Source: a virus (Duplodnaviria; Heunggongvirae; Uroviricota; Caudoviricetes). Taken from it: a stretch of DNA of 64,000 bases. Positions 271 through 56,646 of this stretch are shown piece by piece. The DNA is taken from the IMG/VR virus record IMGVR_UViG_3300010367_000170. One strand, written 5' to 3'. A model generated the notes under the pieces. It had not been told where the DNA came from. It ran no database searches and was given only the letters and a program-made list of their open reading frames with translations. Each line of letters begins with the position of its first letter. The first letter of the stretch is position 1. Made by a program: the position numbers and the translations under genes.

Positions 271-485
271 GTGGTGTCCTTCGTTGGGTTTGGCGGCTGT
301 CCCTCCGGTTGCCGCTGTGTTGATCACGAGTGTAGGGCACCAGGTGGCGACACGATACGGCCGTCGTGTTCGGCGGTAGTAAACAGCAGGATGTTGAGTT
401 GGCAGACCCGACGTGGGAGGACTTTACTTCACTTACCCGGGAGGGGTAACGTAGCGGAATAGATCCTTTTACCGGAGGAGAGTAC

Positions 486-764
486 ATGGCCTCTAGTCCC
501 TACAACCCGCCCCGCTGGAAGCAAGACCTGTGCGGGGCACACGAGATCGCGAGATGGGCGAACGTCACCACAGCACAGGTGACCCACTGGTCCAAGGAAG
601 AGTGGTTTCCGGCTCCGGTCGATGAACTTCAGATGGGTAGGGTGTGGCGGTTCAAGGAGGTGGTGGACGTGCTCACTGAGCGCGGATACCCCAAGGAGTC
701 GTACTTTGAGCGCTACCCAGCCCACAAGCAGCGGCTCAACAAGTCGCAGAACAGCGGTGAATAG
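486..764 (+). CDS. Small helix-turn-helix DNA-binding protein (MerR/excisionase-like)
   Basis: GGAGGAG RBS 8 nt before ATG. ARWANVTTAQVTHW resembles an HTH_17/Xis-type recognition helix. Confidence 0.65.
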   Translation: MASSPYNPPRWKQDLCGAHEIARWANVTTAQVTHWSKEEWFPAPVDELQMGRVWRFKEVVDVLTERGYPKESYFERYPAHKQRLNKSQNSGE

Positions 765-1016
765 CAGCATCTCCCAGTGCGGGTACGTGTACTGCCTGGG
801 TTCATATAGCAAGCCGCCGGAGCAGTGCGAGGAGGATGCCTTGGAGGGGAAGGAGTTCTGCTCCCGGCATCTGTATGGCTACGACGAAGCCTGGGACGGC
901 TTCGACTGGTCGTAGGAACAACGCTCCGGCCCTTTCGGGTAAGCCCCTGCCTCTCCGGACGGCGGGGGCTTTCTCGTTGGCTAGGGGCTGCGGTGCCAGC
1001 TTCCCCGCTACCTAGT

Positions 1017-1053
1017 TTTACTCCGCTTAGCGACCCGAGTAACGTTACCCGCG
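1017..1053 (+). promoter_or_regulatory. Conserved 37-nt upstream element (copy 1) containing perfect palindrome GTAACGTTAC (1039-1048)
   Basis: TTTACTCCGCTTAGCGAcccGAGTAACGTTACCCGCG, about 30 nt upstream of ATG 1084. Near-identical copy at 7378-7414. TTACTC/GAGTAA arms can form a hairpin. Confidence 0.5.
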
Positions 1054-1083
1054 CCGTTACTCGACGGCAGGAGGAGGAGAAGA

Positions 1084-1776
1084 ATGATCGACACCGAAGT
1101 GAAAACCGCCATCCACCTGCACGCGCCAGCAGACATCGATGGCCTCTACGACGAAGCCGTCAACGCCATCCTCAAGTACGACAACGTCAACTGGACCGAC
1201 GTCCACAAGATGGACATCCCCGTGCGGGAACAGCCCGGCGTCAAGATGGTCATCCCCGTCGGAGCCAACATCAAGCTGATGATCTGCTACCGCCCCGACG
1301 GCAAGCCCCTGTCCGACGAAGGCGACTTCCTGCTGCGGCAGGCCGCGTGCAACAACCCGGACTGCAAGCCGTCGCAGCACTTTCCGGCGCACCACACCCT
1401 GCTGGCGTTCGCCACCGACATCGGCCACCAGACCGACGGCATCCAGAACTGCGGGGAACTCCACGCGTCCATCATCTACCGCCTCGGAGAGTGGCTGGAC
1501 AACCACGGCATCCGGTGGTCCTGGGCGTCGGTCCTCAACGACGACACCCACTCCGGCTACGACAACCTCAACAAGATGTCCGCCTGGTTCGGGGAGTACC
1601 AGCAGAAGCTCGCCTACCGGGCCGCGATGGAGTCCCTGGGACCGGCGGTGCCCCTGAACTCCCTGCCCGGTCTGATGATCTTCGCCGAGAGGGTGGCCGC
1701 CGCCAAGGCGGAAGAGGACGACAGCGACGACGACTGGGAAGACCCGTACGCCGACTACGTGGAAGAAGACGAGTAG
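1084..1776 (+). CDS. Hypothetical protein (230 aa)
   Basis: AGGAGGAGGAGAAGA RBS then ATG. High GC3. Acidic C-terminus. Confidence 0.7.
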   Translation: MIDTEVKTAIHLHAPADIDGLYDEAVNAILKYDNVNWTDVHKMDIPVREQPGVKMVIPVGANIKLMICYRPDGKPLSDEGDFLLRQAACNNPDCKPSQHFPAHHTLLAFATDIGHQTDGIQNCGELHASIIYRLGEWLDNHGIRWSWASVLNDDTHSGYDNLNKMSAWFGEYQQKLAYRAAMESLGPAVPLNSLPGLMIFAERVAAAKAEEDDSDDDWEDPYADYVEEDE

Positions 1777-1791
1777 CAGGCAACGCACGGG

Positions 1792-1825
1792 AAAGCCCCC
1801 ACCGCGCCACATCGGTGGGGGCTTT
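1792..1825. terminator. Hairpin terminator (13-bp perfect stem AAAGCCCCCACCG/CGGTGGGGGCTTT)
   Basis: Sits between convergent genes 1084..1776(+) and 1905..2408(-). Second hairpin at 1829-1861 (TTGCCCGGGG/CCCCGGGCAA). Confidence 0.6.
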
Positions 1826-1904
1826 AGGTTGCCCGGGGCACCGGAGGGAGACCCCGGGCAACCCTTCGCGTCTCAACCGTTTCCGGGAGTCGCGAAGTCT
1901 GTGA

Positions 1905-2408
1905 TCATCCTAGAGCCACGATCTCCGCCAGCGCATCCTCCGGGGTCAGCTCCCGGTTGGCCAGGCGAGTACCGACGTGCCGCGCGGCAGCGGCGGTGAA
2001 GCCGTTGTTCATAGCCCAGACGTCCAGGTCTCGCAGCGCGGCGTACATCTCGCGCTGTTCGGCCAGGTAGATGTCAGCGACGTCCTTGCCGTACTGGCGG
2101 TACTCGTTCTTGACGTCGTTGTTGATCGCGACGAATGCGTTGACGTGGGCGCTGTCGGCGATCTGGGCCATCACGGTCCCGATGGCGGTCTGCTCCACCT
2201 CCGACGGAGGCTTGGAGGGGCTGTCGGCTGGCGGGTTGTTGCCTCCCGGGCGCCACAGGGGCAGGTCCAGGGCGCTGTCGGGGCGTTGGGAGGAGCGCAG
2301 CGGCTCCAAGGGAGCGTCGCTGCGCAGGATGTCCAGGGCTTCGGTGGCGCGTCCGACGGGCTTCTGGGTCCTGAGCCTGTTGTAGGGGTCTTCCGTGTTG
2401 AAGGGCAT
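1905..2408 (-). CDS. Hypothetical protein (167 aa), lone minus-strand gene in early plus block
   Basis: GGAGGAG RBS upstream of ATG (plus 2409-2425 reverse complement). Confidence 0.65.
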   Translation of the reverse strand: MPFNTEDPYNRLRTQKPVGRATEALDILRSDAPLEPLRSSQRPDSALDLPLWRPGGNNPPADSPSKPPSEVEQTAIGTVMAQIADSAHVNAFVAINNDVKNEYRQYGKDVADIYLAEQREMYAALRDLDVWAMNNGFTAAAARHVGTRLANRELTPEDALAEIVALG

Positions 2409-2634
2409 GGTCTTCTCCTCCGGTTGGGGTTTTTGGGCAGCCCCGTGGAAGTGTGGAGAAGGAAACGGGGCTGCGCTACGTATAGATAGTAGCGTACGAA
2501 CGTTACCGCGTTAACTCGGACATGTGGGTACAGCCTAAACAAGCGAGCTTCCCTCCTCTTACCGATGGGGTATACGATACCGATATTGCTTCGGAGGAAC
2601 CCCCCGGAGCCGCCGAATAACCGGAGGAACACAT
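2409..2634. promoter_or_regulatory. Divergent intergenic regulatory region
   Basis: Contains hairpin 2437-2474 (GCAGCCCCGT..ACGGGGCTGC), motif GAACGTTACCGCG at 2508-2520 (variant of GTAACGTTAC..CCGCG) and near-palindrome GGTATACGATACC at 2569-2581. No ORF with coding signal. Confidence 0.45.
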
Positions 2635-4173
2635 ATGGGTAACGCCATGAGCTTCGATGAGTTCCAGCTCATGCTCAAGCACGGTCCCGACGCGGAGAAG
2701 GACATGGTCCAGGCCATGATCCTCGCCGCTCTCGGCAAGCTCGGCGGTGCCGCCGCCAGCGAGGACGACCTGCTGTTCAAGGGCAAGAAGTTCATCCTGC
2801 CCGCCCAGTTCGAAGGCGACATCCAGGGCGCCGTCAGCTACCTGCGGAACCTGGACGAGCAGCTGAACACCGTCCACGCGTTCCGGCGCACCTTCCGCTA
2901 CCGGCCCGACGACGTCGCCCACGCGCTGGGCGTCGCCATGAAGAAGATCTTCGGCACCACCGGCATCGGCAAGGAGACGGTGGGCTTCTTCGGATCCGTC
3001 ACCCCTCCGACCTTCCGGACCGTCAACACCGGCTTCAACGAGACGGCGCAGGTCATCCAGGGTAAGACCGAGTTCCCGCCGCTGGGCGCCGTCATCACCG
3101 TCCACTACGACCAGGACGCCGAAGTGGGGATGCTCGGGCACCTCATCATCGAAGCGCCGCGCAGGTTCCGCGCCCAGGCTGAGGGCCTGTTCCTGGCGGT
3201 GGAGGACGTCCTCAAGACCGCCTCCATCTACCGGGGCAAGGCTGTCAACGGATCCGACACCCCCGGGTTCCTCAACACCGGCCTGATCGACCCGCGCCGC
3301 GTCATCTACACCGCCGACGTCATGGACCAGCTCGACGCCAACCTGTGGACACCGATCCGCCACACGGACGTCCTGCGGGAGATGGGGATGCCGCTGAAGC
3401 GGGCCGTACTCCTGGAGGGGCCGTACGGCACCGGCAAGTCGATGGCTGCCGCGCTGACCGCCCGGATCTGCGAGGAGAACAGCTGGACGTTCGTCCAGGT
3501 GCGTCCGGGTGACGACCTGGAGCTGGCGATGAAGACCGCGCGGCTGTACGAACCGGCCGTCGTGTTCTACGAGGACGTGGACACCGTCACGGAGAACGGC
3601 GAACCGGCGCACGTGTCCAGGCTCCTGGACATCTTCGACGGCATCGCCGCCAAGGGCGCCGACGTGATCGTGGTCATGACCACGAACCACGTGGACAAGA
3701 TCCAGAAGGGGATGCTGCGCCCGGGACGGATGGACTCGGTCATCCACATCGGTGCGATGGAACCGGACGGTTTCCGGAAGCTCATCGAGGTCAACGTGCC
3801 GGAGGGCATGTTGATGAACATCGACTACGACGAAGTGGGCAAGGCGTTCGACGGTTTCCTGCCCGCGTTCGCGATGGAGGCCATCAACCGGGCGATGCGG
3901 TACGGCGTGTCCCGCTCCAAGGGCAAGCCGGACTTCCTCACCACCCACGACTTCGTCGCTGCCGCCGACGGCCTGCGGCCCCAGCTGGCCCGCATGAACG
4001 AAGCCACCGAGGGCGTGCGGCTGCCCAACGTGGACAAGGCGCTGCGGGACATGGTCCAGGACGCCATCCACAAGTCGGAGTTCGTGAACAACGACCCGGA
4101 CGAGAAGATCGACGACGCGGATGTGTACTACCGGCTGCGCAAGCCGAAGGTGAAGCTGAACGGCGAGCAGTAG
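2635..4173 (+). CDS. AAA-family ATPase (classic AAA: Walker A GPYGTGKS, second region of homology with MLRPGRMD)
   Basis: CGGAGGAAC RBS then ATG. 512 aa. N-terminal ~250 aa domain of unknown function followed by an AAA module. Confidence 0.8.
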   Translation: MGNAMSFDEFQLMLKHGPDAEKDMVQAMILAALGKLGGAAASEDDLLFKGKKFILPAQFEGDIQGAVSYLRNLDEQLNTVHAFRRTFRYRPDDVAHALGVAMKKIFGTTGIGKETVGFFGSVTPPTFRTVNTGFNETAQVIQGKTEFPPLGAVITVHYDQDAEVGMLGHLIIEAPRRFRAQAEGLFLAVEDVLKTASIYRGKAVNGSDTPGFLNTGLIDPRRVIYTADVMDQLDANLWTPIRHTDVLREMGMPLKRAVLLEGPYGTGKSMAAALTARICEENSWTFVQVRPGDDLELAMKTARLYEPAVVFYEDVDTVTENGEPAHVSRLLDIFDGIAAKGADVIVVMTTNHVDKIQKGMLRPGRMDSVIHIGAMEPDGFRKLIEVNVPEGMLMNIDYDEVGKAFDGFLPAFAMEAINRAMRYGVSRSKGKPDFLTTHDFVAAADGLRPQLARMNEATEGVRLPNVDKALRDMVQDAIHKSEFVNNDPDEKIDDADVYYRLRKPKVKLNGEQ

Positions 4174-4183
4174 CCGAACCGTA

Positions 4184-4213
4184 GGGGGACGCCCGGTCTG
4201 CCGGGCGTCCCCC
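4184..4213. terminator. Hairpin terminator GGGGGACGCCCGG-tctg-CCGGGCGTCCCCC
   Basis: Perfect 13-bp stem immediately after the stop of 2635..4173. Confidence 0.6.
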
Positions 4214-4234
4214 GTTCCCGTACCGGAGGCGAAG

Positions 4235-4576
4235 ATGAGGTTGACGGCCGAGCAGGGTGCGGAGATGGTGGCCGCTGGCGGGAGGTGGCTGGACGTTCGC
4301 GGACCGGCGTACGGCTGGTTGGACCGGGTGGACCTGGATCGGTTGGACATCCGGTCCAGCGACGACTGCGTGTTGGGTCAGGTGTTCAGGGACCGGTCGC
4401 CCGGCGAGACCGGTTACGCGTGGGCTTGCCGGATGCTGCCGCCCAGGACCGGTACCGCGAGGCTCACGGAGATGGGGTTCTTCTACCCGTACGAGGACCC
4501 GGAGGACTACGCGCACGGCTGCGCGACCCTGACGGAGGCTTGGCGGTACTACATCACGGCCCGTCGGGCGAGGTAG
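4235..4576 (+). CDS. Hypothetical protein (113 aa)
   Basis: CCGGAGGCGAAG RBS then ATG. Confidence 0.6.
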   Translation: MRLTAEQGAEMVAAGGRWLDVRGPAYGWLDRVDLDRLDIRSSDDCVLGQVFRDRSPGETGYAWACRMLPPRTGTARLTEMGFFYPYEDPEDYAHGCATLTEAWRYYITARRAR

Positions 4577-4593
4577 TCCAAGTGAAGACGATG

Positions 4594-4620
4594 ACGCCGG
4601 AGGCATCCCGCCTCCGGCGT
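4594..4620. terminator. Hairpin ACGCCGGAGG-catcccg-CCTCCGGCGT followed by TTCTTG
   Basis: 10-bp perfect stem after the stop at 4576. Confidence 0.5.
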
Positions 4621-4642
4621 TTCTTGCGGGAGGAGGGTTTCA

Positions 4643-5092
4643 GTGGCCGACTGGCGTGATTTGAGTATTCGAGAGATTGAGGATCTTCTGGAAGAGGGTC
4701 GGCAGCAGGCTTTGAGGGATGAGAGGAGCGCGGTTGCCGGGTCCAAGACCAAGGGTACGGCTGACGAGAGGTACCAGCAGTACAGCAGCTATTTGCTGAG
4801 TTTGCGTCGGCTGCTGATGTTCCTGGCGGAGAACGAGCCTAAGACGTCCCGGACGCGGTATCGCAAGGAGCGTTGCCCTTGGTGCGCTAAGCGTGTCTCC
4901 GTCACGGAGGACACGGTTTGGACGTGTCCTGCGGATGTTCGGCGGGACGCTCCGGGGTGGCTGACTCCGGCTCACTCGGAGATTGTTGATCTGCGGCGGA
5001 AGGGGAGTAACCCCTCCAGCTGTGGGCGCGCGTATGGGTTGTCTTGTTATCAGGATGTTCCGGCTCACGGGGAGTGTCACAGGAGGGGGTGA
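4643..5092 (+). CDS. Hypothetical protein (149 aa), GTG start
   Basis: GGGAGGAGGG RBS 5-6 nt before GTG. Confidence 0.55.
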   Translation: MADWRDLSIREIEDLLEEGRQQALRDERSAVAGSKTKGTADERYQQYSSYLLSLRRLLMFLAENEPKTSRTRYRKERCPWCAKRVSVTEDTVWTCPADVRRDAPGWLTPAHSEIVDLRRKGSNPSSCGRAYGLSCYQDVPAHGECHRRG

Positions 5093-5274
5093 TCGGTGTG
5101 GGCGCGGTTAGCCGTCCGTGTCCCAAGCCGCACAAGTTGCGGTTTGCTGCGCTCGCCGCTGCTGAGATCCGTTCTCGGGTGTACACGGAGATGTTCGGTA
5201 GACAGCAATACGTGTACCGGTGCCGGTGCGGTTATTACCACCTGACTACAAGACCTCCCAGGCGTCAAACCTAG
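5089..5274 (+). CDS. Small Cys-containing protein (61 aa), GTG start overlapping upstream stop (GTGA)
   Basis: CAGGAGGGG before GTG 5089. Product carries a CRCGYYH motif. Low confidence. Confidence 0.35.
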   Translation: MIGVGAVSRPCPKPHKLRFAALAAAEIRSRVYTEMFGRQQYVYRCRCGYYHLTTRPPRRQT

Positions 5275-5299
5275 GACTTCCGTACGCTTATCGAATAGA

Positions 5300-5323
5300 G
5301 TAACGTTACCTCGGTAACGTCAC
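5300..5323 (+). promoter_or_regulatory. Tandem operator-like sites GTAACGTTAC (5300-5309) plus GTAACGTCAC (5314-5323)
   Basis: Perfect 10-bp palindrome and an adjacent one-mismatch copy, about 20-40 nt upstream of ATG 5342. Confidence 0.5.
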
Positions 5324-5341
5324 GTCAACCAGGAGGAATAC

Positions 5342-5965
5342 ATGAAGGAATCCACCAAAGACACCGCCACCAGCACCGCGCACGTCAACGGTGTCCTCGC
5401 CGCGATGGGCTACACCGTCGTCGGCGGCAGTCGCGACCGCAACCGGTTCAAGGACGGCTTCCGCGTCCAGAAGCCCACCGAACAGTACGGCGCCATCCCC
5501 GTCACCATCACCAGCCGACGCCGCACCTATGACGTCCAGGCCGAGATCGACAAGATCGTCATCGAGTTCGCCAGCAAGGAACTGGAGATCCACGACATCG
5601 TCGTGTCCGACGACAACAAGTTCGGCAGCTTCACCGTCCGCAGAGCCTTCAACAAGGGCAAGACCGCCGACGGCAAGGGCATCACCCGCATCAAGGGCCG
5701 ATACTGGTTCATCCACCTGCGCGCCTCCGTCGTGTGGACCGTCATGACCGACGCCGACGACACCGACCTGCGCACCGTGGAGGTCGAGAGCGCCCAGTAC
5801 ACCCGCTACCCCTTCTCGATCGTCGCCGAGATGCGGCGCAACGTGAAGGTTCCCGGCCAGCGGATGGTCAACTGGTCCGTCACCGTCAACGGCAAGAAGC
5901 GCAGCGAGTACCCGGGGCTCACCGCCGCCAAGGCGGATGTCCGCAAGGCGCTCCTGGGGGAGTAA
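5342..5965 (+). CDS. Hypothetical protein (207 aa)
   Basis: CCAGGAGGAATAC then ATG. Strong coding bias. Confidence 0.7.
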   Translation: MKESTKDTATSTAHVNGVLAAMGYTVVGGSRDRNRFKDGFRVQKPTEQYGAIPVTITSRRRTYDVQAEIDKIVIEFASKELEIHDIVVSDDNKFGSFTVRRAFNKGKTADGKGITRIKGRYWFIHLRASVVWTVMTDADDTDLRTVEVESAQYTRYPFSIVAEMRRNVKVPGQRMVNWSVTVNGKKRSEYPGLTAAKADVRKALLGE

Positions 5966-5998
5966 CCGCAACAACGACCGGAGGAGAACCGTGGAGAA

Positions 5999-6334
5999 GT
6001 GGATTTGCGGACGCGTCACCAACGCTGGCCGCGAGGCGGCGGTGGCCACGTGAGCGTCAAGGTGCTCGTGGAGATCGACGGCAGCGTGGCGCCGTTGGAG
6101 GAGTGCGAGTGGGTGTGGACCGAGAAGTGCGGCTGCGCCGTAGCCATGTCTTACGCCAACACCGCCGATGAGGAGAAGGCTTGGAGGGATGCGTTCCAGT
6201 ACGCCAAGGAACGGGCCAAGCTGCGCAGGCGCGGCGTCACCGCCGAACTGATGACGTTCAAGCGGGCCAGGGCGGAGTTCCTGCCGATGATGCGGCTGGA
6301 GTACACCTGCCCGCACAAGAAGGAGGGGAAGTGA
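5999..6334 (+). CDS. Hypothetical Cys-containing protein (111 aa), GTG start
   Basis: GGAGGAG 8 nt before GTG 5999. C..W.W..KCGC and CPHKK motifs. Confidence 0.5.
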   Translation: MDLRTRHQRWPRGGGGHVSVKVLVEIDGSVAPLEECEWVWTEKCGCAVAMSYANTADEEKAWRDAFQYAKERAKLRRRGVTAELMTFKRARAEFLPMMRLEYTCPHKKEGK

Positions 6335-6546
6335 CCGTCAACAACGACCGGATGACGTTGAACGTCGCTCCGCAGTGCCGCAAGGACCTGGACCTGTTGA
6401 TGGCTGAGCTGGGCCTGAACCAGACCGACGTCATCCACCGGGCAACGCGGCTGCTGGCGATCTACCAGGAGACTGTTCGGGATGGCGGCGAGTTCCTGAG
6501 GCGCCGCACCAGCGGCAAGGAGCCGGAGGTCATCCTCTTCCTGTAG
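6331..6546 (+). CDS. Small protein (71 aa), GTG start overlapping upstream stop (GTGA)
   Basis: AAGGAGGGG then GTG 6331. Internal part of ORF 6181..6546 with good coding character. Confidence 0.55.
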   Translation: MTVNNDRMTLNVAPQCRKDLDLLMAELGLNQTDVIHRATRLLAIYQETVRDGGEFLRRRTSGKEPEVILFL

Positions 6547-6574
6547 AACACAGCCCCGCTCCGGCGGGGCACCC

Positions 6575-6646
6575 GCCCTCATACCTCAGTGGTCAGAGGA
6601 CCCAGTCACCGTGGGGAAGTCACGGGTTCGAATCCCGTTGAGGGTA
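6575..6646 (+). tRNA. tRNA (72 nt), tentative anticodon CAC (Val)
   Basis: Cloverleaf folded by hand: acceptor GCCCTCA/TGAGGGT, D stem CCTC/GAGG, T arm ACGGG-TTCGAAT-CCCGT, discriminator A then CC. The anticodon stem is imperfect (4 bp), so the identity call is weak. Confidence 0.6.
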
Positions 6647-6748
6647 CCGGTACGCGCAGTTGAACGCAGGCGTTTCCTTTGGTCCGCCTAAGCGTTCCTT
6701 CGTTGCAGCGGAGTGGATGGGCTGCGCGTACCTCACAACCGAAAACAG

Positions 6749-6821
6749 GTTCTCGTGGCCCGATCGGTAGGGGCAGCGGCCTTATGCGCCGTTGGTGGGG
6801 GTTCGAATCCCTCCGAGAGCA
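6749..6821 (+). tRNA. tRNA (73 nt), anticodon UAU (reads rare AUA; Ile2-like)
   Basis: Clean cloverleaf: acceptor GTTCTCG/CGAGAGC, D stem GCCC/GGGC, anticodon stem GCGGC/GCCGT with loop cTTATgc (U33, purine 37), T arm GGGGG-TTCGAAT-CCCTC. Confidence 0.7.
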
Positions 6822-6850
6822 CGCCCAACAAGCTCAACCCGGAGGTTTCT

Positions 6851-7027
6851 GTGTCGAACAGTATGACGCGTCAGCATTTCAAGGCTGTGGCGAACGTGAT
6901 CGCAGCCATTAAGGATCCTGACCAGCGTCGCGAAAGCTGTTACGACGCTATCCGGGAGTTGAGGCAGTTCAACAGCAACTTCAACCGGTCCCGGTTCGAA
7001 GCCGCTTGCGGCCTGAAGGAGGAGTAG
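6851..7027 (+). CDS. Small protein (58 aa)
   Basis: CCGGAGG 5 nt before GTG 6851. The longer listed ORF 6713.. would overlap the tRNA, so the start was trimmed. Confidence 0.45.
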   Translation: MSNSMTRQHFKAVANVIAAIKDPDQRRESCYDAIRELRQFNSNFNRSRFEAACGLKEE

Positions 7028-7293
7028 TGGAGACGGAGACGCACGATCAGATGGTGGTGTTCACGTTGGAGCCCGACGGTTGGTGGGCTACGTGGCTGCC
7101 GGGGCAGGACGGGACGGTGGCTGTTCACGGCGGGAACGGTCCGGTGCCGCAGGAGTCGGAGGAGTTGGTGTCCCTCGGCATCTGGGACGTGTTCGAGACG
7201 GGTCTGGGTGACGACGCGGACGAGGTGGAGGCGGTGTTGAAGTCCGGCGGTTTCCGTGTGGTTTCGCGGGAGTGTAGGACGTTGGACTTGTAG
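7027..7293 (+). CDS. Small protein with HicB-like N-terminal fold signature (88 aa)
   Basis: AGGAGGAG just upstream of GTG 7027. TLEPDGWWATWLPGQDGTVAVHG resembles HicB/UPF0150. Confidence 0.45.
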   Translation: METETHDQMVVFTLEPDGWWATWLPGQDGTVAVHGGNGPVPQESEELVSLGIWDVFETGLGDDADEVEAVLKSGGFRVVSRECRTLDL

Positions 7294-7377
7294 CCTGTTC
7301 GGTGACCTCTCGGTCAGTGGCGAGCCCCAGACGTGACCCCCCGGTTCTGGGGCTTGTTGCTTTTCTCCTCGATGGGC

Positions 7378-7414
7378 TTTACTCCGCTTAGCGATAGGAG
7401 TAACGTTGCCCGCG
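7378..7414 (+). promoter_or_regulatory. Conserved 37-nt upstream element (copy 2) with GTAACGTTGC core
   Basis: TTTACTCCGCTTAGCGAtagGAGTAACGTTGCCCGCG, about 30 nt upstream of ATG 7444. Matches 1017-1053 with a compensatory stem change (TTACTCC/GGAGTAA). Confidence 0.5.
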
Positions 7415-7443
7415 TAAGCTGCCCCGCCATCGAGGAGAAGACG

Positions 7444-8835: not shown

Positions 8836-8909
8836 CCAGCTTCGGTAGACCCCGGGGGGTGTCCCCGGGGGACTCCGTGGAAGGCCAGAGCGCTACAAAC
8901 GGAGGGGAG

Positions 8910-14691: not shown

Positions 14692-15210
14692 TTACTCCGG
14701 TAGCGGTTGATCTTCAGTCTGGCCCATACCGCTACCCTCGGTCCTGTCGCGTTGTCTGCGGGAAAGCCACCATCGGCGCGGGCGGGGGACGTCGTCGTTG
14801 ACTTCTTTCGCGGTCACGGCCGGTACGTTACGTCCGACAGCGGCCAGCGGAATACCCTCCGGCGGAGGCTTCCCCGGTACTGGATCGGCTTCCCAATGTC
14901 CGTTGCGCAAAGCTTTGATGAATGCGCGCGGGTCGTCAGGGTCGGCGTCAGGGACGCGGGTGCGGGTCGCTGTGTCTTCTTTGGGTTTGCGGGCTGCGGA
15001 CAATACCCGCACCCCGGCACGGATCTTCGATGGAGACAGTGGCCTGTCGGACTCGGAGAAGTGGGCGGTGACCACGGCCTTGGCGTCGTCAAAGTCCACT
15101 TCGTGGAGCAGCTGGTACCAGGCTTCGACTTCGGCCTGAGATACGCCATCCGGGCGCCTCTCGTACACGTAGATAGCACTCAGCAGGAACGCCACCTGGG
15201 TTTTGGTCAC
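14692..15210 (-). CDS. Hypothetical protein (172 aa), downstream of the O-like initiator (possible replication partner)
   Basis: GGAGGAC RBS then ATG 15210, adjacent to the upstream stop. Confidence 0.6.
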   Translation of the reverse strand: MTKTQVAFLLSAIYVYERRPDGVSQAEVEAWYQLLHEVDFDDAKAVVTAHFSESDRPLSPSKIRAGVRVLSAARKPKEDTATRTRVPDADPDDPRAFIKALRNGHWEADPVPGKPPPEGIPLAAVGRNVPAVTAKEVNDDVPRPRRWWLSRRQRDRTEGSGMGQTEDQPLPE

Positions 15211-15414
15211 TCAGTCCTCCGACTGGTTCTTGAGGTTGTTGATCTCCCTGTTGGCCTGCCAGATCTCCCGGAGATGGAGTTCTACGGCTCCGAGGAACAG
15301 TTCGGCCATGAGTCCCCTGTCGGCTTCGGCTTCCCTGGCCAATTCGGCAACGGTGGATTCCAGTCTGCGAATGGACCGGTACCGTGCCGCCTGCCAGTCC
15401 TCCAGGGTGTTCAC
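15211..15414 (-). CDS. Small coiled-coil protein (67 aa), GTGA-coupled
   Basis: GTG 15414 overlaps TGA of the upstream gene. The first 52 aa of listed ORF 15211..15570 overlap the upstream gene and look non-coding. Confidence 0.45.
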   Translation of the reverse strand: MNTLEDWQAARYRSIRRLESTVAELAREAEADRGLMAELFLGAVELHLREIWQANREINNLKNQSED

Positions 15415-16919
15415 CAGCTGGGTCCGATCTCCTTGAGGCCGCCGTTGCCGAGTTCCTGCTGGCGGTAGTGCTCTACCGTCTGCATGTTCTGGCGGAACGC
15501 GTCGTCGGCGCGGGAGCGGACTTGCGGGGCCTGTTCTGGGTCGTCGTCCCAGCGTTCCTGGTTGAGCCACACGGACGGGTGGGGGGTGAACTGGATCTCC
15601 TTGCCGATCATCTGGCAGGTGTTGGCGTAGCTGGCTGCGGCTTCGATGATGCGGTGGGCGGGGGTGCCCTTGGCGACGGCGGCAAGGAAGGCTTTGCGGG
15701 CGGCTCCCTTGCCGGTGCGGCGCGGGTAGTAGTGCCAGAAGGTGTCGAAGTCTTGTTCGTTGTTCTGCTTCAGCGGGGCGGGGGCTGCGGGGAAGGCGAA
15801 CAGGGAGCCGTCGGCGGGGGCTTCTGTGTTGGGGTCGGACAGGAGGAGGTGTCCGGGGACGTTGTGGATCTTGCCGGTGTCGGCGAGGGTGTTGATCCAG
15901 TTGGAGATGTCAGTGGGGGTGATGTCGTCGTCGTAGCGGAAGAGTTCCGCTTTGAGGTAACGCGTATCGGAGACGATCATGGAGGCGGTGTCTGCGAGGC
16001 TGCGAAGCCCCAGGTAGAACAGCCGGATGCCGATGGGGAGGGTTCCCAGGGCAGGGTCGGTGAACGGTGTCATCGCGGCTCTTTCGGTAGTGCGTGGGGA
16101 ATACGTTACCGCGATCTTTGCCTCAACGGGAAGATCGCTTCCGGGCTGGCAAACCGCCGGAGAAACCTCCTCCCGCACTCCTCCGGCACCACTCACCTTA
16201 CGAGGCACGGCAAGCCCCAAGAGGCGCCTAGCAAAGCCCCTAGCCACCCTCCTGGTGGTCCTCCGGTCCGCAGCCGGTCCGGCCCCAACCGGCAACAAGC
16301 CCAAGTGAGGTTCCCGCCTAGCGCTACCCGTAGGCTCCGGACCTGCTTCTGGTCCGGTCTTCATCGGCAAAGCCGATGGATAGATATCTGCGCGCGGCTC
16401 TCCTTGAGAGTTGTCTTCACAAAGCGAGCCGCTAGACCTGTTGTCGCTAGTAAAACCACCGGTCTGTAGATGGTATACGTAATTTTGGCTCTGACCTGCG
16501 TAAACGTCCTCCTGCGGCTCCCACTCCGGATCTTGTTCCTGAGCCTCACGCCAAGCCTGCTCCCGCGCCTCCGAAACCTCCTCCGGCAACGGACACTCCG
16601 GGGTCCCCCCAAGCCGGTACTTCACTACCGGCCGTCTCCGGTCGCAGGGAGCCTCGCCGTCTTGGAGTATGAGCCGGAGGTCACGGAGCTTCCGCAGAGC
16701 CTTCTCGACAGCGCTACGGCTGTAGGAAACCCGCTCCTGAATCCAGGAGATACACAACCGGAACCGATCCCACATAGACCGGCGTGTCCACGACGCGACC
16801 ACGTACAACACCGACGTCTCGCAGCCCGACAAGCCATAGAACTCGGCAGTGTCGGCAGCCCACGCAACAGCGAATTCGTTACTTCCATCAAGCAGGGGCT
16901 TGGACCGGTGGCTCCGCAT
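15411..16919 (-). CDS. Lambda-O-like replication initiator candidate: N-terminal winged-HTH, low-complexity linker, C-terminal conserved domain (502 aa ORF)
   Basis: N-terminal ISWIQERVSYSRSAVEKALRKLRDLRLI is a wHTH. C-terminal FWHYYPRRTGKGAARKAF..WLNQERWDDD has very high GC3. The middle ~140 codons have low GC3 and contain an AT-rich stretch plus iteron-like motifs. An internal ATG at 16073 could alternatively start a separate 221-aa product. Confidence 0.5.
   Translation of the reverse strand: MRSHRSKPLLDGSNEFAVAWAADTAEFYGLSGCETSVLYVVASWTRRSMWDRFRLCISWIQERVSYSRSAVEKALRKLRDLRLILQDGEAPCDRRRPVVKYRLGGTPECPLPEEVSEAREQAWREAQEQDPEWEPQEDVYAGQSQNYVYHLQTGGFTSDNRSSGSLCEDNSQGEPRADIYPSALPMKTGPEAGPEPTGSARREPHLGLLPVGAGPAADRRTTRRVARGFARRLLGLAVPRKVSGAGGVREEVSPAVCQPGSDLPVEAKIAVTYSPRTTERAAMTPFTDPALGTLPIGIRLFYLGLRSLADTASMIVSDTRYLKAELFRYDDDITPTDISNWINTLADTGKIHNVPGHLLLSDPNTEAPADGSLFAFPAAPAPLKQNNEQDFDTFWHYYPRRTGKGAARKAFLAAVAKGTPAHRIIEAAASYANTCQMIGKEIQFTPHPSVWLNQERWDDDPEQAPQVRSRADDAFRQNMQTVEHYRQQELGNGGLKEIGPSW
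16099..16490. promoter_or_regulatory. Putative intragenic origin-like region (iteron-like CGCTAG/CCTAGC repeats, GAATACGTTACCGCG motif, AT-rich GGTATACGTAATTTTGG)
   Basis: Low GC3 in the host ORF frame. Five or more copies of (C/G)CTAGC within about 230 bp. AT-rich block at 16472-16490. Analogous to lambda ori inside gene O. Confidence 0.3.
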
Positions 16920-29979: not shown

Positions 29980-30323
29980 CGGCCGACGTTGCCGACCGAG
30001 TGTTGGCACTGGTGAACGCCTGGGCCAGCGGAGACCCGAAACGGTTCCACTCGGTGGTCATTCAAACCGCCGCAAAGCTGGCTCGGAGCGGAGACGGCGC
30101 CAAAGCCAGACAGATCCGTGACCTGGCTGACCGGGCTCTGGCGGAACGTCTGTACCTGCCCCCGTACAGCGGGGCGCACGGGTACTGCACCAAGTGTGAG
30201 TTTGGGGCGGTGACACTGAAATACCAGATCGAAGATGGCGTGGACTTCCTGGAGCGGGAATGCGGCCGGTGCCACTACGTCTGGTACGAGAAATGCGCGG
30301 ACGCGGAGAAGAACTATGGCTAA
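29976..30323 (+). CDS. Cys-rich hypothetical protein (115 aa), GTGA-coupled
   Basis: CTKCEF..CGRCHYVWYEKC. Confidence 0.55.
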   Translation: MTADVADRVLALVNAWASGDPKRFHSVVIQTAAKLARSGDGAKARQIRDLADRALAERLYLPPYSGAHGYCTKCEFGAVTLKYQIEDGVDFLERECGRCHYVWYEKCADAEKNYG

Positions 30324-30579
30324 GCCTGTACGGATGTTGAAGCTGGACCCGGAGACGCATCAGCTGATCGAAGAGGTCTCCAAGTGGCTGGGTATGGAAC
30401 CGGCCAAGTTCGTCGCTGAAGCCGTGACACACTACCTCGACACGCAGCGGGAACCTCTGGTGAACCGGGTCCAGGAACGGTTGAACAAGCTGTTCGACAG
30501 CCTTGACGAGGCGCGTACGCCGAAGACCGGCTGGGGTACCCGGTCCGGAGGTTGGGGCAGCGAGGAACCTCCGTTCTGA
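30316..30579 (+). CDS. Ribbon-helix-helix (CopG/Arc-like) DNA-binding protein (87 aa)
   Basis: GGAGAAGAACT then ATG 30316. VRMLKLDPETHQLIEEVSKWLGMEPAKFVAEAVTHYL. Confidence 0.55.
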   Translation: MAKPVRMLKLDPETHQLIEEVSKWLGMEPAKFVAEAVTHYLDTQREPLVNRVQERLNKLFDSLDEARTPKTGWGTRSGGWGSEEPPF

Positions 30580-31332: not shown

Positions 31333-31770
31333 ATGGAACAACGCGCCGTACTCTCCGTCAGAGAAATGGAACTGTTCATCCTGCTTGGACGCCACGGCGC
31401 CACCAAAAGCCAAGCCGCCCACACCATGACCATCTCCCCCTACACGGTGAAACAACACCTCGCGCGCGTCGCCAAGCGCATCGGCAGCAACGGAACCGCC
31501 AACGCGCTCCACATCCTGATCTGCGAAAAAGTCATTCCTGTCGAACTCGTCTCCGCCCGTCGGCGTCTCCTCCCCATAGAAAGAGTCATCCTCGAAGACG
31601 TCGCCAAAGGCTTCTCCAACTCGGACATAGCCGCCCGCGCAGGAATGACGCTCCCGCAGACGCAATACGCCATAAAAAGACTGTTCAAGACGATGCGCGC
31701 GAACACCCGGATACAACTCGTCTACCGAGGTCACCAAACCGGTCACCTCACAACCAACCGGAGGAACTAA
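31333..31770 (+). CDS. Tandem LuxR/GerE-type HTH transcriptional regulator (two HTH units, 145 aa)
   Basis: GGAAGGGGGAACGAC then ATG. LSVREMELFILLGRHGATKSQAAHTMTISPYTVKQHLARVAKRIG and a second LLPIERVILEDVAKGFSNSDIAARAGMTLPQTQYAIKRLFKTM. Confidence 0.7.
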   Translation: MEQRAVLSVREMELFILLGRHGATKSQAAHTMTISPYTVKQHLARVAKRIGSNGTANALHILICEKVIPVELVSARRRLLPIERVILEDVAKGFSNSDIAARAGMTLPQTQYAIKRLFKTMRANTRIQLVYRGHQTGHLTTNRRN

Positions 31771-32738
31771 TGAGCTACAACGGGCCGTCAACCAAGGCCG
31801 TGGGTATCGGCTGCCTCGCCGCCGCTGCCGTCTTCACCGGAGCCGTGTTCGCCACCGGCTACGCCATGTCGTTCGAGTCCACCACCCCCGGACAGATCGC
31901 GGTGGTCCGCAACGGCGGACCCATGTCCGGCAAGAGCATCAAGCAGATCCTGCCCCCCGGCCACGGCGGCACCTACGTCGGCTACTGGACCACCGTCCAC
32001 TTCTACCCGGCCACCCAGTCCAGCTACACCATCACCGACGACGTGAAGGAAGGCGACCAGCCCGGCGTGGACGTCATCTCGGTGCCGTCGGCCGACGGCG
32101 TCCAGATGGGGCTTCAGGGCACCCTCTACTTCACCCTCAACACCGACCCGGCGACGGTGAAGAAGTTCGACGACAAGTTCGGCACCCGCAGCTTCACCTA
32201 CGGAGGCGAGTCCGGCCACGCCTACGACGGCAACAAGGGCTTCGGCATCTTCATGAACCAGGTAGTCAGGCCCGTGATCAACAACGCCGTCCGCCAGGCC
32301 ATCGCGGGCAAGCGCTGCTCCGAGCTGCTGGCGTCGTGCGCCCTGGTACAGAACACCGGGCAGCCGGTGAACTTCAACACCGTCCCCGTCGGCTCCGTGA
32401 ACATCAACGACGTCCAGAGCGCCATCAACAGCGACCTGGAGAACGACATCAACAACACCCTCGGCGGTAACTTCTTCACCGGCCTGAAGTTCAACCTCAA
32501 CAAGGTTGACGTCCCCCCCAACGTCCAGGAAGCCATCAACAACGCCCAGTCGGCGTTTGCCGCAGTCTCCCAGTCCCAGGCGAAGATCGCGCAGGCGCAG
32601 GCCGACGCCAAGGCCAACGAGACCAGGCAGAATGGCTACAACGCCTGCCCCGTCTGCGGCCAGATCGACATGCTGCACGCCCTGCCGCCCGGTCTCACCA
32701 CCTACGCTCCCGGCACCCAGTTCGCCGTCACCAAGTAG
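31770..32738 (+). CDS. SPFH/band-7 (stomatin/prohibitin-like) domain membrane protein
   Basis: ACCGGAGGAACTA then ATG. N-terminal TM then QIAVVRNGG..K..L.PG fold signature with an Ala/Gln-rich coiled-coil tail. Confidence 0.65.
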   Translation: MSYNGPSTKAVGIGCLAAAAVFTGAVFATGYAMSFESTTPGQIAVVRNGGPMSGKSIKQILPPGHGGTYVGYWTTVHFYPATQSSYTITDDVKEGDQPGVDVISVPSADGVQMGLQGTLYFTLNTDPATVKKFDDKFGTRSFTYGGESGHAYDGNKGFGIFMNQVVRPVINNAVRQAIAGKRCSELLASCALVQNTGQPVNFNTVPVGSVNINDVQSAINSDLENDINNTLGGNFFTGLKFNLNKVDVPPNVQEAINNAQSAFAAVSQSQAKIAQAQADAKANETRQNGYNACPVCGQIDMLHALPPGLTTYAPGTQFAVTK

Positions 32739-51304: not shown

Positions 51305-51568
51305 CTACTCGGAGATCTCGGTTTTCTTGGGGCGTCCACGCTTGGGCTTGGAGGGTTCGTCGTCGTCAGCGGGTTCCTGGGTGTTCTCCGGTTCCGTCTC
51401 CGGGTCCTCTTCCACGGGTTCGGCTTTTGGGGGTTCGGCTTCGCTGAAGCCGCCGTGGGGGATGTTGAGGAGTTCCCAGGCGAGTTCGTCGTGGACTTCG
51501 ATCACCTGTCCGTCGTGTTCCCACCGGTAGCCGGGAGCGTTTCCCGCCTGTGACTTCCGCAGATACAT
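51305..51568 (-). CDS. Small virion-module protein (87 aa), acidic/basic tail
   Basis: AAAGGCGGCAG then ATG. Confidence 0.55.
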   Translation of the reverse strand: MYLRKSQAGNAPGYRWEHDGQVIEVHDELAWELLNIPHGGFSEAEPPKAEPVEEDPETEPENTQEPADDDEPSKPKRGRPKKTEISE

Positions 51569-51674
51569 GCTGCCGCCTTTACGTCGTTTACCGGTTCCGG
51601 TAGCGTAGGTAACTCGTTACTCGGGTAGGTAGGTGCCTACCTGGTACAACACACTAACCCGGAGGAGAAGACCC
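51569..51674. promoter_or_regulatory. Divergent promoter/operator region with GTAGGTA iterons and palindrome AGGTAGGtgCCTACCT (51628-51643)
   Basis: GTAGGTA at 51606, GGTAGGTAGG at 51625-34, perfect 7-bp-arm palindrome, plus GTAACtcGTTAC (51610-21) spaced variant of the GTAACGTTAC palindrome. Confidence 0.45.
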
Positions 51675-56553: not shown

Positions 56554-56581
56554 AGCCCCTTCGGCACAGCTCGAAGGGGCT
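56554..56581. terminator. Hairpin AGCCCCTTCG-gcacagct-CGAAGGGGCT then TT
   Basis: Intra-block terminator between 56536 and 56647. Confidence 0.5.
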
Positions 56582-56646
56582 TTACGGCGCTTAGCCTTTC
56601 CAGTATCGTTGCTACTGCAAGCACACGACACCGGAGGAGAAGCCAA

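What the first reader, a model, noticed from the sequence alone, without database searches (positions are those of the whole stretch)
1017..7414. Recurrent operator-like palindrome GTAACGTTAC and a shared 37-nt structured leader upstream of early genes
- **Palindrome copies:** the perfect 10-bp palindrome GTAACGTTAC (or one-mismatch versions, often followed by CCGCG) occurs in intergenic DNA upstream of starts at 1084 (1039-1048), 2635 (2508-2520), 5342 (5300-5309, with a second half-site at 5314-5323) and 7444 (7400-7409).
- **Further copies:** one more lies inside the O-like linker/origin region (16099-16113) and a 2-nt spaced version (GTAACtcGTTAC) at 51610-21.
- **Shared leader:** at 1017-1053 and 7378-7414 the palindrome is embedded in a 37-nt element conserved between the two sites (TTTACTCCGCTTAGCGAnnnGAGTAACGTT.CCCGCG). 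The TTACTC(C)/(G)GAGTAA arms co-vary, implying a conserved hairpin or protein site.
- **Interpretation:** this resembles start-associated sequences of some mycobacteriophage clusters. It is a good candidate for the binding site of one of the small HTH/RHH proteins in this region.
Basis: seen in the sequence. Interest (0 to 1): 0.55.

Follow-up and report, generated by a model that had tools for sequence, protein, structure and literature searches.

The report
Conserved promoter set of uncultured actinophage
The repeated "palindrome plus 37-nt leader" is best read as a family of ordinary two-hexamer promoters (TTTACT, 17-18 bases, TAACGT) in front of non-structural genes of an uncultivated high-GC phage. 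It is not an operator or a folded RNA leader, so it is useful for annotation but not a new kind of element.

Summary
The motif is real. GTAACGTTAC with at most 1 mismatch occurs 4 times against 0.69 expected. The composite TTTAC-N18-19-TAnCGT occurs 5 times against 0.03 expected.

The window holds seven composite sites, with first hexamers at 423, 1017, 2549, 5278, 7378, 51578 and 56581. All are on the + strand, between genes, 33-68 nt before an SD-led start codon.

In eight related genomes I aligned 30 such sites. Only three parts are invariant:
- TT(TAC) in the first hexamer;
- a spacer block (C)TTA(G/C)C;
- TAnnnT in the second hexamer.

The spacer is always 17 or 18 nt. More distant relatives replace GTAACGT with TACGAT, TACGCT, TACCTT or TAGCAT, and one orthologous site has GTATCGT. 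The palindrome is therefore not what is conserved.

In a relative not used for model building, TTTAC-N18-19-TAnnnT alone hits 7 times against 0.07 expected, each hit before a gene.

The proposed hairpin fails both tests: fold z-scores run from -0.9 to +0.7, and pairing is no better than in shuffles. The element does not resemble cluster K start-associated sequences.

Verdict: sigma-70-type promoters, probably read by the host's primary sigma factor. Two things stay open: the role of the spacer block, and the clustering of GTAAC/GTTAC half-sites at three promoters, which could still be an operator overlay.

The parts
423..452 (+). Promoter-like site before gene 486..764: TTTACT (423-428), block CTTACC (432-437), 18-nt spacer, TAACGT (447-452). 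ATG follows 33 nt after the second hexamer.
   Evidence: the orthologous sites in L001, L002, L005 and L006 keep the hexamers
1017..1053 (+). The palindrome GTAACGTTAC (1039-1048) is the second hexamer plus its flanks.
   Evidence: a terminator-like hairpin at 952-968 lies upstream
2549..2578 (+). Weaker site before the AAA-ATPase gene 2635..4173: TTCCCT (2549-2554), block CTTACC (2558-2563), 18-nt spacer, TACGAT (2573-2578). ATG follows 56 nt later.
   Evidence: E 0.71; PWM 29 bits; same type as the 5278 site and the L007/L008 sites
2497..2510 (-). Partial copy: CGAACGTTACCGCG on the + strand, CGCGGTAACGT on the - strand. Candidate second-hexamer-only promoter for the leftward gene 1905..2408, 91 nt before its ATG.
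   Evidence: conserved in L001 at 9871(-); inference only
5278..5323 (+). Site before gene 5342..5965: TTCCGT (5278-5283), block CTTATC (5287-5292), 17-nt spacer, TAACGT (5301-5306) inside the perfect palindrome 5300-5309. A second copy, GTAACGTCAC, lies at 5314-5323.
   Evidence: the tandem copy is kept in L001 and L004 but not in L002
7378..7414 (+).
   Evidence: a terminator-like hairpin at 7339-7352 lies just upstream; the L002 ortholog has TATCGT
51578..51620 (+). Site before the GTG at 51675: TTTACG (51578-51583), block TTTACC (51587-51592), 17-nt spacer, TAGCGT (51601-51606), followed by the spaced palindrome GTAACTCGTTAC (51609-51620). TAGCGTA also reads TACGCT on the minus strand, 33 nt before the ATG of the leftward ORF 51305..51568.
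56581..56609 (+). Site before the ATG at 56647: TTTACG (56581-56586), block CTTAGC (56590-56595), 17-nt spacer, TATCGT (56604-56609). No palindrome. An 8-bp GC hairpin at 56556-56579 abuts it.
16103..16113 (-). CGCGGTAACGT on the minus strand, 29 nt before an internal ATG of ORF 15411..16919(-). No first hexamer or spacer block. Status ambiguous.
   Evidence: (E 7.8)
14825..14831 (-). GTAACGT inside ORFs on both strands, with no other motif parts. Probably a chance occurrence.

Best explanation
**What it is.** The element is a family-specific set of sigma-70-type promoters.

**Anatomy.** Each copy has a -35-like hexamer TTTAC(T/A/G), degenerate as TTCCsT at two window sites. A 17-18 nt spacer follows, and then a -10 hexamer of the actinobacterial TAnnnT type. 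In this phage's clade the -10 hexamer is usually (G)TAACGT.

**The palindrome.** GTAACGTTAC is simply that -10 hexamer plus its flanking bases.

**How it most likely works (inferred).**
- RNA polymerase carrying the host's primary sigma factor binds the two hexamers.
- It starts transcription about 6-9 nt after the -10 hexamer.
- That gives a leader of roughly 25-35 nt that carries the GGAGGAG ribosome-binding site.
- Many copies sit directly behind GC-rich terminator-like hairpins, so the genes form separately promoted, insulated units.

**Shown versus inferred.** Sequence architecture, spacing, orientation, position and conservation across relatives are shown here. RNA polymerase binding, the identity of the sigma factor, the start site and the timing of expression are inferred.
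For: - **Composite enrichment.** TTTAC-N18-19-TAnCGT gives 5 window hits against 0.03 expected.
- **Window sites.** HMM and PWM scans give seven window sites. All are on the + strand, all lie between genes, and none is in the structural-gene blocks.
- **Alignment of 30 sites from 8 genomes.** The spacer is only 17 or 18 nt. The second hexamer is always TAnnnT. Its end lies a median of 36 nt (range 31-68) before an SD-led start codon, and 28 of 30 starts are ATG. The invariant columns are TT / TTA.C / TA...T.
- **Comparison with Streptomyces.** The published consensus is -10 TANNNT and a weaker -35 NTGACC, with a 5'UTR length peak at 30-39 nt (PMC4895711).
- **Palindrome not conserved.** Distant relatives use TACGAT, TACGCT, TACCTT or TAGCAT, and the L002 ortholog of the 7400 site has GTATCGT.
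- **Independent test.** In L029, which was not used for any model, TTTAC-N18-19-TAnnnT hits 7 times against 0.07 expected. All hits are on the + strand, 35-75 nt before a called + strand gene.
- **Little room for another promoter.** Terminator-like hairpins lie just upstream of several sites, at 952-968, 7339-7352 and 56556-56579. The 55 nt upstream of the sites fold better than random windows, median -22.8 vs -18.3 kcal/mol, p = 0.012.
Against: - No transcription start data exist and the host is unknown.
- The first hexamer is never the canonical TTGAC. It is TTTAC at every site that has a good hexamer, and a generic TTGACA/TATAAT scan finds nothing in 1-9000.
- Two window sites, and five of the 30 aligned sites, have a poor first hexamer (TTCCCT or TTCCGT).
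- Within the window's clade, the spacer block (C)TTA(G/C)C and the CGT inside the second hexamer are as conserved as the hexamers. Known sigma contacts do not explain this.
- GTAAC/GTTAC half-sites cluster at three promoters more than chance allows.
Confidence: 0.68

Rival explanations
1. The sites are promoters, but they depend on a phage-encoded factor. The rigid unit TTTAC-N4-(C)TTA(G/C)C, two TTAC-like direct repeats 9 bp apart, would be bound by a phage activator or a sigma-remodelling protein. The host polymerase would read only the TAnnnT hexamer. This would work like T4 middle promoters (MotA box plus -10 element).
For: - The block's T13, T14, A15 and C17 are invariant in all 30 aligned sites, and information content there equals that of the hexamers.
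- The block is present in 15 of 15 sites found with a pattern that did not include it.
- The block stays when the first hexamer degenerates to TTCCCT.
- The block is fixed relative to the first hexamer, and the 17/18 length difference falls between the block and the second hexamer.
- GCTTA lies 10-11 bp from the second hexamer. This is close to the MotA box TGCTTtA, which lies 12±1 bp from the -10 element (PMC2988021).
Against: - In L029 the block is variable (TAAGCA, TGAACT, TACATC, CTAACC) while the hexamers and spacing persist.
- The first rightward gene (486..764) carries the full motif itself, so a phage factor would have to be injected or made from another promoter.
- No candidate factor was identified.
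- T4 early promoters also show extra consensus without needing phage factors.
- The similarity among copies could reflect common descent of the promoter copies.
Confidence: 0.17
2. An operator is laid over a subset of the promoters. A dimeric phage regulator binds GTAAC/GTTAC half-sites that overlap the second hexamer and the transcription start region at the promoters of 1084, 5342 and 51675. It shuts these genes off or autoregulates them. This is the first reader's idea, restricted to a subset and added on top of the promoter.
For: - Only three clusters of GTAAC/GTTAC exist among 56 half-sites in the window, and all three are at motif promoters. There are two triple clusters against 0.01 expected.
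- The perfect 10-mer is kept at the orthologous promoters of L001, L002 and L004.
- The palindrome extends to 14 bp in L001 (GAGTAACGTTACTC) and to 12 bp in L002 (GGTAACGTTACC), using different flanking bases.
Against: - Half-site spacing is inconsistent: 0, 2, 4 and 7 nt.
- The extra half-sites at 1056 (absent in L001 and L002) and 5314 (absent in L002) are not kept.
- Four of the seven window promoters lack dyad symmetry.
- More distant relatives have none.
- No cognate protein was identified.
Confidence: 0.2
3. The element is a structured mRNA leader: a hairpin formed by TTACTC(C) and (G)GAGTAA that controls translation or stability.
For: The minimum-free-energy folds of the two window copies do pair these arms.
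Against: - Fold z-scores of -0.91 and -0.75 are not better than shuffles, and other copies fold differently.
- Pairing is 76.5% against 75.6% in shuffles for 14 sequences, and 66.7% against 64.7% for 30. The three pairs that hold most consistently are just the conserved TAC and GTA bases of the two hexamers.
- An alternative stem between the block and the second hexamer also fails.
- No Rfam family matches.
- The promoter geometry places the 5' arm upstream of the start of transcription.
Confidence: 0.03
4. The element is a start-associated, translation-linked element like the SAS/ESAS of cluster K mycobacteriophages.
For: The motif is repeated, lies in one orientation, sits in front of non-structural genes and mostly precedes ATG starts. 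These are the same general properties described for SAS.
Against: - SAS is a 13-bp motif that contains the SD core and lies 3-7 bp from the start codon.
- This motif ends 31-68 nt upstream of the start and is separate from the SD.
- There is no 17-bp inverted-repeat pair of the ESAS kind.
Confidence: 0.02

Closest known systems
Housekeeping-sigma (HrdB/SigA, sigma-70 family) promoters of actinobacteria
   Same: - The -10 hexamer is TAnnnT.
- A weaker -35 hexamer lies 17-18 nt upstream.
- The implied leader is about 30 nt (PMC4895711).
   Different: - The first hexamer is TTTAC rather than T(T)GAC.
- In this clade the spacer block CTTAsC and the CGT inside the -10 hexamer are also conserved.
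T4 early promoters
   Same: They are a set of phage promoters read by host polymerase. They share consensus positions beyond the standard elements and drive pre-replicative genes (PMC2988021).
   Different: - The host phylum and the consensus are different.
- No UP-element-like A/T tract is seen.
- Timing and strength are untested here.
T4 middle promoters (MotA box plus -10 element, sigma appropriation)
   Same: A conserved GCTTA-containing box lies a fixed short distance upstream of a TAnnnT hexamer.
   Different: - The box is 10-11 bp from the -10 hexamer, not 12±1 bp.
- A -35-like hexamer is kept upstream of the box.
- No search for MotA or AsiA homologues was made.
- The box is variable in L029.
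Cluster K mycobacteriophage start-associated sequences (SAS/ESAS)
   Same: Both are repeated, asymmetric and in one orientation, lie before non-structural genes and go with ATG starts.
   Different: - SAS overlaps the ribosome-binding site, 3-7 bp from the start codon.
- This element lies further upstream and has promoter geometry.
Symmetric bidirectional promoters (overlapping -10 elements on opposite strands)
   Same: TAGCGTA at 51601-51607 and TAACGTTA at 1040-1047 and 5301-5308 read TAnnnT on both strands. At 51.6 kb the minus-strand hexamer sits 33 nt before a leftward ORF (preprint 10.1101/2020.01.31.928960).
   Different: - Only the 51.6 kb site lies between divergent genes.
- At 1039 and 5300 nothing obvious would be transcribed leftward.
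- Divergent initiation is untested.

Membership tests
sigma-70-family -35/-10 promoter | -10 hexamer with T1, A2 and T6 (TAnnnT in high-GC actinobacteria) | tested here: met
   30 of 30 aligned sites; T27, A28 and T32 are invariant
sigma-70-family -35/-10 promoter | -35-like hexamer at a spacing of 17±1 nt | tested here: met
   The spacer is 17 or 18 nt at all 30 sites. 25 sites have TTTACn or TGTACA and 5 have TTCCsT. The canonical G of TTGACA is never present, and a generic scan finds no site.
sigma-70-family -35/-10 promoter | Intergenic, co-oriented with the gene downstream, at leader distance | tested here: met
   All sites lie in gaps between called genes and point at the next gene. The median distance to the start codon is 36 nt. 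In the independent locus L029 this holds for 7 of 7 hits.
sigma-70-family -35/-10 promoter | Transcription starts 5-10 nt after the -10 hexamer; RNA polymerase holoenzyme binds | not testable with these tools
   This needs 5' RACE, dRNA-seq or in vitro transcription.
Palindromic operator of a dimeric repressor | Dyad symmetry kept across copies and across relatives | tested here: not met
   The palindrome is perfect at 2 of 7 window sites. The right half varies. It is absent in L005-L008 and L029, and the L002 ortholog has GTATCGT.
Palindromic operator of a dimeric repressor | Local clustering of half-sites | tested here: inconclusive
   Three clusters, all at motif promoters, but with irregular spacing and only partial conservation.
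Palindromic operator of a dimeric repressor | Cognate DNA-binding protein | tested here: inconclusive
   - 486..764: no Pfam or PDB match, and the structure model has pLDDT 56.
- 31333..31770: GerE/LuxR-type HTH, E = 2.3e-10.
- 30316..30579: weak Rv0623-like hit below the cut-off.
- No link from any of these to the motif can be tested here.
Cluster K SAS/ESAS | 13-bp motif containing the SD core, 3-7 bp upstream of the start codon | tested here: not met
   The motif ends 31-68 nt before the start and a separate GGAGGAG SD follows (definition from PMC3203893).
Structured RNA leader | Stability beyond shuffles and compensatory base changes | tested here: not met
   Fold z-scores from -0.94 to +0.71. 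Pair counts equal the shuffles. No Rfam hit.
T4-type middle promoter (MotA box) | The box replaces the -35 element and lies 12±1 bp from the -10 element; MotA and AsiA are present | tested here: not met
   GCTTA is 10-11 bp from the -10 hexamer and a -35-like hexamer is retained. No search for MotA or AsiA homologues was made.

The most novel reading that the evidence does not exclude
The rigid composite TTTAC-N4-(C)TTA(G/C)C is the binding site of a phage-encoded transcription factor, an activator or a sigma-remodelling protein. This factor would redirect host RNA polymerase to these genes on DNA that probably carries modified bases, since a Tet/JBP-kinase-ADDT gene cluster lies next to the region. 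That would be an actinophage counterpart of T4 sigma appropriation. The GTAAC/GTTAC half-sites might form a second regulatory layer.
Probability: 0.15. Interest if true: 0.55.

Novelty: new member of a known kind. Interest (0 to 1): 0.3.

Why it matters
- **Annotation.** The motif gives a usable promoter model for a lineage of roughly 100-kb high-GC phages known only from metagenomes. No nucleotide match, and only remote protein matches, exist among cultured phages. The model helps fix gene starts, for example 7444, 51675 and 56647 instead of longer ORFs, and it defines transcription units.
- **Promoter parts.** The sites are compact terminator-promoter-SD cassettes that may be useful as expression parts in actinobacteria.
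- **Modified DNA.** The phage very likely modifies its DNA bases. The promoters that must work on injected DNA are a natural place to ask how a polymerase reads modified T- or C-containing hexamers.
- **Cautionary point.** A palindromic-looking -10 hexamer (TAACGTTA) can be mistaken for an operator.

Tried and rejected
- **Searches for relatives that found nothing.** Megablast of 1-8000 against cultured phages gave no match. Scans for relatives of the ATPase in IMG/VR and in GTDB genomes gave none. An exact search for the long motif in IMG/VR gave none.
- **Looser pattern in IMG/VR.** It found only one L002-like contig plus low-GC chance hits.
- **Remote ATPase homologues.** Loci in Gordonia phage Fryberger and Mycobacterium phage McProf carry no motif. 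A Streptomyces demainii prophage-like locus carries none either.
- **Hairpin models.** Both the first-hexamer/second-hexamer stem and the block/second-hexamer stem were rejected.
- **Downstream inverted partner for the spacer block.** One occurs at some sites (7415-7420, L006 12057, L006 7143, L029 15202-15216) but not consistently.
- **Alternative sigma readings.** ECF-type (AAC...CGT) and SigB-type (GTTT...GGGTA) readings of the motif were checked by eye against the sites. Both were dropped because spacing or the upstream element does not fit.
- **The 92-aa protein 486..764.** Structure prediction gave pLDDT 56, too poor for a fold search.
- **DNA of the window's own contig left of the window.** It could not be fetched; only the gene list came back. 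The look-up for the right flank failed.
- **Literature.** Searches for the motif itself and for phiC31 early promoters returned nothing usable.


Full report
**Setting**

The window is 63% GC. It carries phage genes: a tape-measure-like protein, an SU10-type capsid protein, a GH25 lysin, a replication-initiator-like protein, a ParB-like protein and an AAA ATPase. It also has two tRNAs. It has no nucleotide-level relative among cultured phages, and its capsid protein finds only remote hits.

The ATPase (2635..4173) has close relatives on long metagenomic contigs of about 100 kb. I fetched the DNA around eight of them:
- L001 and L004, 86% ATPase identity;
- L002/L003, 69%;
- L005 to L008, 58-63%;
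- L029, 55%.

Gene order around the ATPase is shared, so orthologous intergenic regions can be compared.

**Check of the observation**

GTAACGTTAC is perfect at 1039 and 5300 and has one mismatch at 5314 and 7400. That is 4 matches against 0.69 expected, and no shuffle reaches 4. The spaced copy lies at 51609-51620. The two 37-nt elements are 33/37 identical.

Two of the listed copies are not as described:
- **2508-2520** holds no copy. The nearest is CGAACGTTAC at 2497-2506, with two mismatches. It reads GTAACGT only on the minus strand.
- **16099-16113** holds only ACGTTACCGCG, inside the open 502-aa ORF 15411..16919(-).

The bare 7-mer GTAACGT is only modestly enriched, 10 against 4.5 expected.

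**What the 37-nt element looks like**

Each long element begins with TTTACT. Exactly 17 nt later comes TAACGT. A third copy at 423-452 has an 18-nt spacer. That is the geometry of a sigma-70-type promoter, and TAACGT fits TAnnnT, the -10 consensus of Streptomyces and mycobacteria (PMC4895711).

The composite TTTAC-N18-19-TAnCGT occurs 5 times in the window against 0.03 expected. Two of these sites are new, at 51578 (TAGCGT) and 56581 (TATCGT), and neither second hexamer is part of a palindrome. An HMM and a two-block PWM add two weaker sites at 2549 and 5278, which have TTCCsT in place of TTTACn. Neither scan finds anything else on either strand.

All seven sites are on the + strand, in gaps between genes. 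Each lies in front of a start codon with a GGAGGAG-type SD: 486, 1084, 2635, 5342, 7444, 51675 and 56647.

**Comparative test**

The same architecture recurs in every relative. I aligned 30 sites from 8 genomes (A2). The invariant columns are:
- the first T of the first hexamer, with the rest of (C)TTTAC at 83-97%;
- TTA.C of a block that starts 4 nt after TTTAC;
- TA...T of the second hexamer.

Other measures from the same 30 sites:
- The spacer is 17 or 18 nt at all 30.
- The second hexamer ends a median of 36 nt (range 31-68) before the start codon.
- 28 of 30 starts are ATG.

With a start of transcription about 7 nt after the hexamer, the leaders would be 25-35 nt. This is close to the 30-39 nt peak reported for S. 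coelicolor.

The palindrome is not what is conserved:
- The L002 ortholog of the 7400 site has GTATCGT.
- The L002 ortholog of the 446 site has GTAGCGT.
- In L006-L008 the second hexamer is TACGAT, TACGCT, TACCTT, TACCAT or TAGCAT.
- Within the window, the bases after GTAACGT are TAC, TGC, AGC, CAC, TCG and ATT.

The conserved unit is therefore directional, and it always points at the gene downstream.

**Independent validation**

L029 was fetched after all models were built. There the bare pattern TTTAC-N18-19-TAnnnT gives 7 hits against 0.07 expected. All are on the + strand, each 35-75 nt before a called + strand gene. The two hexamers and their spacing alone are predictive.

**Hairpin test**

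The proposed arms are TTACTC(C) and (G)GAGTAA. The two window copies differ in stem length, not by a compensatory change.
- Folding free energies are not better than shuffles (z from -0.94 to +0.71), and different copies fold differently.
- On 14 distinct sequences the stem pairs in 76.5% of cells against 75.6% in shuffles.
- On 30 sequences it pairs in 66.7% against 64.7%.
- The pairs that hold most consistently are the conserved TAC of the first hexamer against the GTA at the start of the second.
- A second candidate stem, between the block and the second hexamer, fails the same test.
- Rfam finds only the two tRNAs.

**Surroundings**

Terminator-like hairpins sit just upstream of several sites: 952-968 before 1017, 7339-7352 before 7378, and 56556-56579 directly abutting 56581. 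In relatives, long GC stems often end at the GC that precedes TTTAC. The 55 nt upstream of the sites fold better than random windows: median -22.8 against -18.3 kcal/mol, p = 0.012. With 25 nt between the hairpin at 7339-7352 and the element at 7378, there is little room for another promoter. This supports the view that the element itself is the promoter of an insulated unit.

**What is not explained**

1. **The first hexamer.** It is TTTAC and never TTGAC.
2. **The spacer block (C)TTA(G/C)C.** It is as conserved as the hexamers in the window's clade. It is present in 15 of 15 sites found with a pattern that did not include it. It is fixed relative to the first hexamer. It is kept where the first hexamer degenerates. 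In L029 it is variable. It is therefore a lineage-specific addition, or a trace of common descent of the promoter copies, rather than a universal requirement. A GCTTA box 10-11 bp from a -10 hexamer recalls the T4 MotA box (12±1 bp; PMC2988021). That is a resemblance only.
3. **Half-site clustering.** GTAAC/GTTAC half-sites cluster only at the promoters of 1084, 5342 and 51675, with two triple clusters against 0.01 expected. The palindrome at the 1084 ortholog extends to 14 bp in L001 and 12 bp in L002. An operator laid over this subset cannot be excluded. Against it, the half-site spacing is irregular and the extra half-sites are only partly conserved.
4. **Symmetric hexamers.** TAACGTTA and TAGCGTA read TAnnnT on both strands. 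At 51.6 kb the minus-strand hexamer lies 33 nt before the leftward ORF 51305..51568, which fits the symmetric bidirectional promoters described for bacteria.

**Comparison with known systems**

- **Primary-sigma promoters of actinobacteria:** the element meets the sequence-level criteria. Initiation itself cannot be tested here.
- **Cluster K start-associated sequences:** not a match. Those are 13 bp, contain the SD core and lie 3-7 bp from the start codon.
- **Palindromic operator:** it fails the symmetry criterion.
- **Closest analogy:** the shared-consensus early promoters of lytic phages such as T4, which also carry consensus positions beyond the standard elements.

No RNA polymerase or sigma factor gene was seen among the window proteins that I scanned, or in the 10 kb to its left. 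Only part of the window's genes were scanned, and about a third of the genome was not visible.

**Verdict**

The interpretation as an operator plus a structured leader is replaced by a promoter reading, with confidence about 0.7 for host-sigma promoters and about 0.85 for promoters of some kind. This is a new member of a known kind. Interest is moderate to low, apart from the unexplained spacer block and the link to probably modified DNA.

Noticed in passing
window 1-270 (-) and the 10 kb left of the window (gene list of the window's own contig); L001 1-7641, L002 1718-6935, L005 6159-8445, L007 6246-8508, L029 3092-7350: A leftward gene cluster lies next to the promoter region: ParB_N, ADDT, DAO, P-loop kinase 3, Tet/JBP and HAD_PNKP. 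It looks like a DNA base hypermodification pathway. L006 carries GTP cyclohydrolase I, PTPS and QueC instead (7-deazaguanine type). L029 adds a radical SAM/SPASM gene. The modification module seems to be swapped between relatives while the promoters stay.
   Followed up: partly
window 6575-6648 and 6749-6822: Two tRNA genes, Val(CAC) and Ile(TAT), lie between the 5342 unit and the 7444 unit.
   Followed up: no
window 1084-1776, 2635-4173, 5342-5965, 7444-8835, 31770-32738: Genes right behind the strongest motif copies have third-position GC of 0.92-0.94, ATG starts and GGAGGAG SD sequences. Neighbouring genes without the motif have 0.7-0.9 and often GTG or TTG starts. This suggests a highly expressed subset. 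The SPFH/Band 7 gene 31770..32738 shares the codon bias but has no motif.
   Followed up: partly
window 56556-56579, 7339-7352, 952-968; L006 around 12020-12056; L002 around 8285-8311 and 15625-15652: GC-rich stem-loops end at the GC just before TTTAC, so a terminator hairpin and the -35 hexamer are fused. The TTT may double as the terminator's U-tract.
   Followed up: partly
window 51569-51674: This is a divergent intergenic region. TAGCGTA (51601-51607) reads TAnnnT on both strands, and the minus-strand hexamer lies 33 nt before the ATG of the leftward ORF 51305..51568. It is a possible symmetric bidirectional promoter.
   Followed up: partly
L029 15175-15216: A perfect 15-bp inverted repeat, ACGGCGCTTACCCGT / ACGGGTAAGCGCCGT, flanks the -10 hexamer of one promoter, with the spacer block forming the left arm. 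Weaker versions (GCTTAGC...GTAAGC) occur at window 7386-7420, L006 12057 and L006 7143.
   Followed up: partly
window 15411-16919 (-): This 502-aa open frame has replication-initiator-like ends. Its middle stretch of about 430 nt (16070-16500) has codon-position GC typical of non-coding DNA. It could be a disordered linker, an embedded origin, or two genes joined by an open stretch.
   Followed up: partly
window 2635-4173; L028 (Streptomyces demainii chromosome 4660164-4677723): The AAA ATPase family is shared at 30-40% identity with Gordonia Ronaldovirus phages, Mycobacteroides prophages, N4-like Erwinia phages and Pseudomonas phages. It is shared at about 52% with Streptomyces chromosomal loci next to a large serine recombinase, i.e. 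prophage-like. This hints at a Streptomyces-like host. The promoter motif is absent from the Streptomyces locus.
   Followed up: partly
31333..31770 is a GerE/LuxR-type HTH (E = 2.3e-10). 30316..30579 has only a sub-threshold Rv0623-like match. 486..764 has no family or structure match and a poor structure model, although it is the first rightward gene in every relative.
   Followed up: partly
window 2500-2510 (-), 16103-16113 (-); L001 1657 (-) and 9871 (-): The 11-mer CGCGGTAACGT recurs on the minus strand, in most cases upstream of leftward genes, without a first hexamer or the spacer block. These may be -10-only promoters.
   Followed up: no
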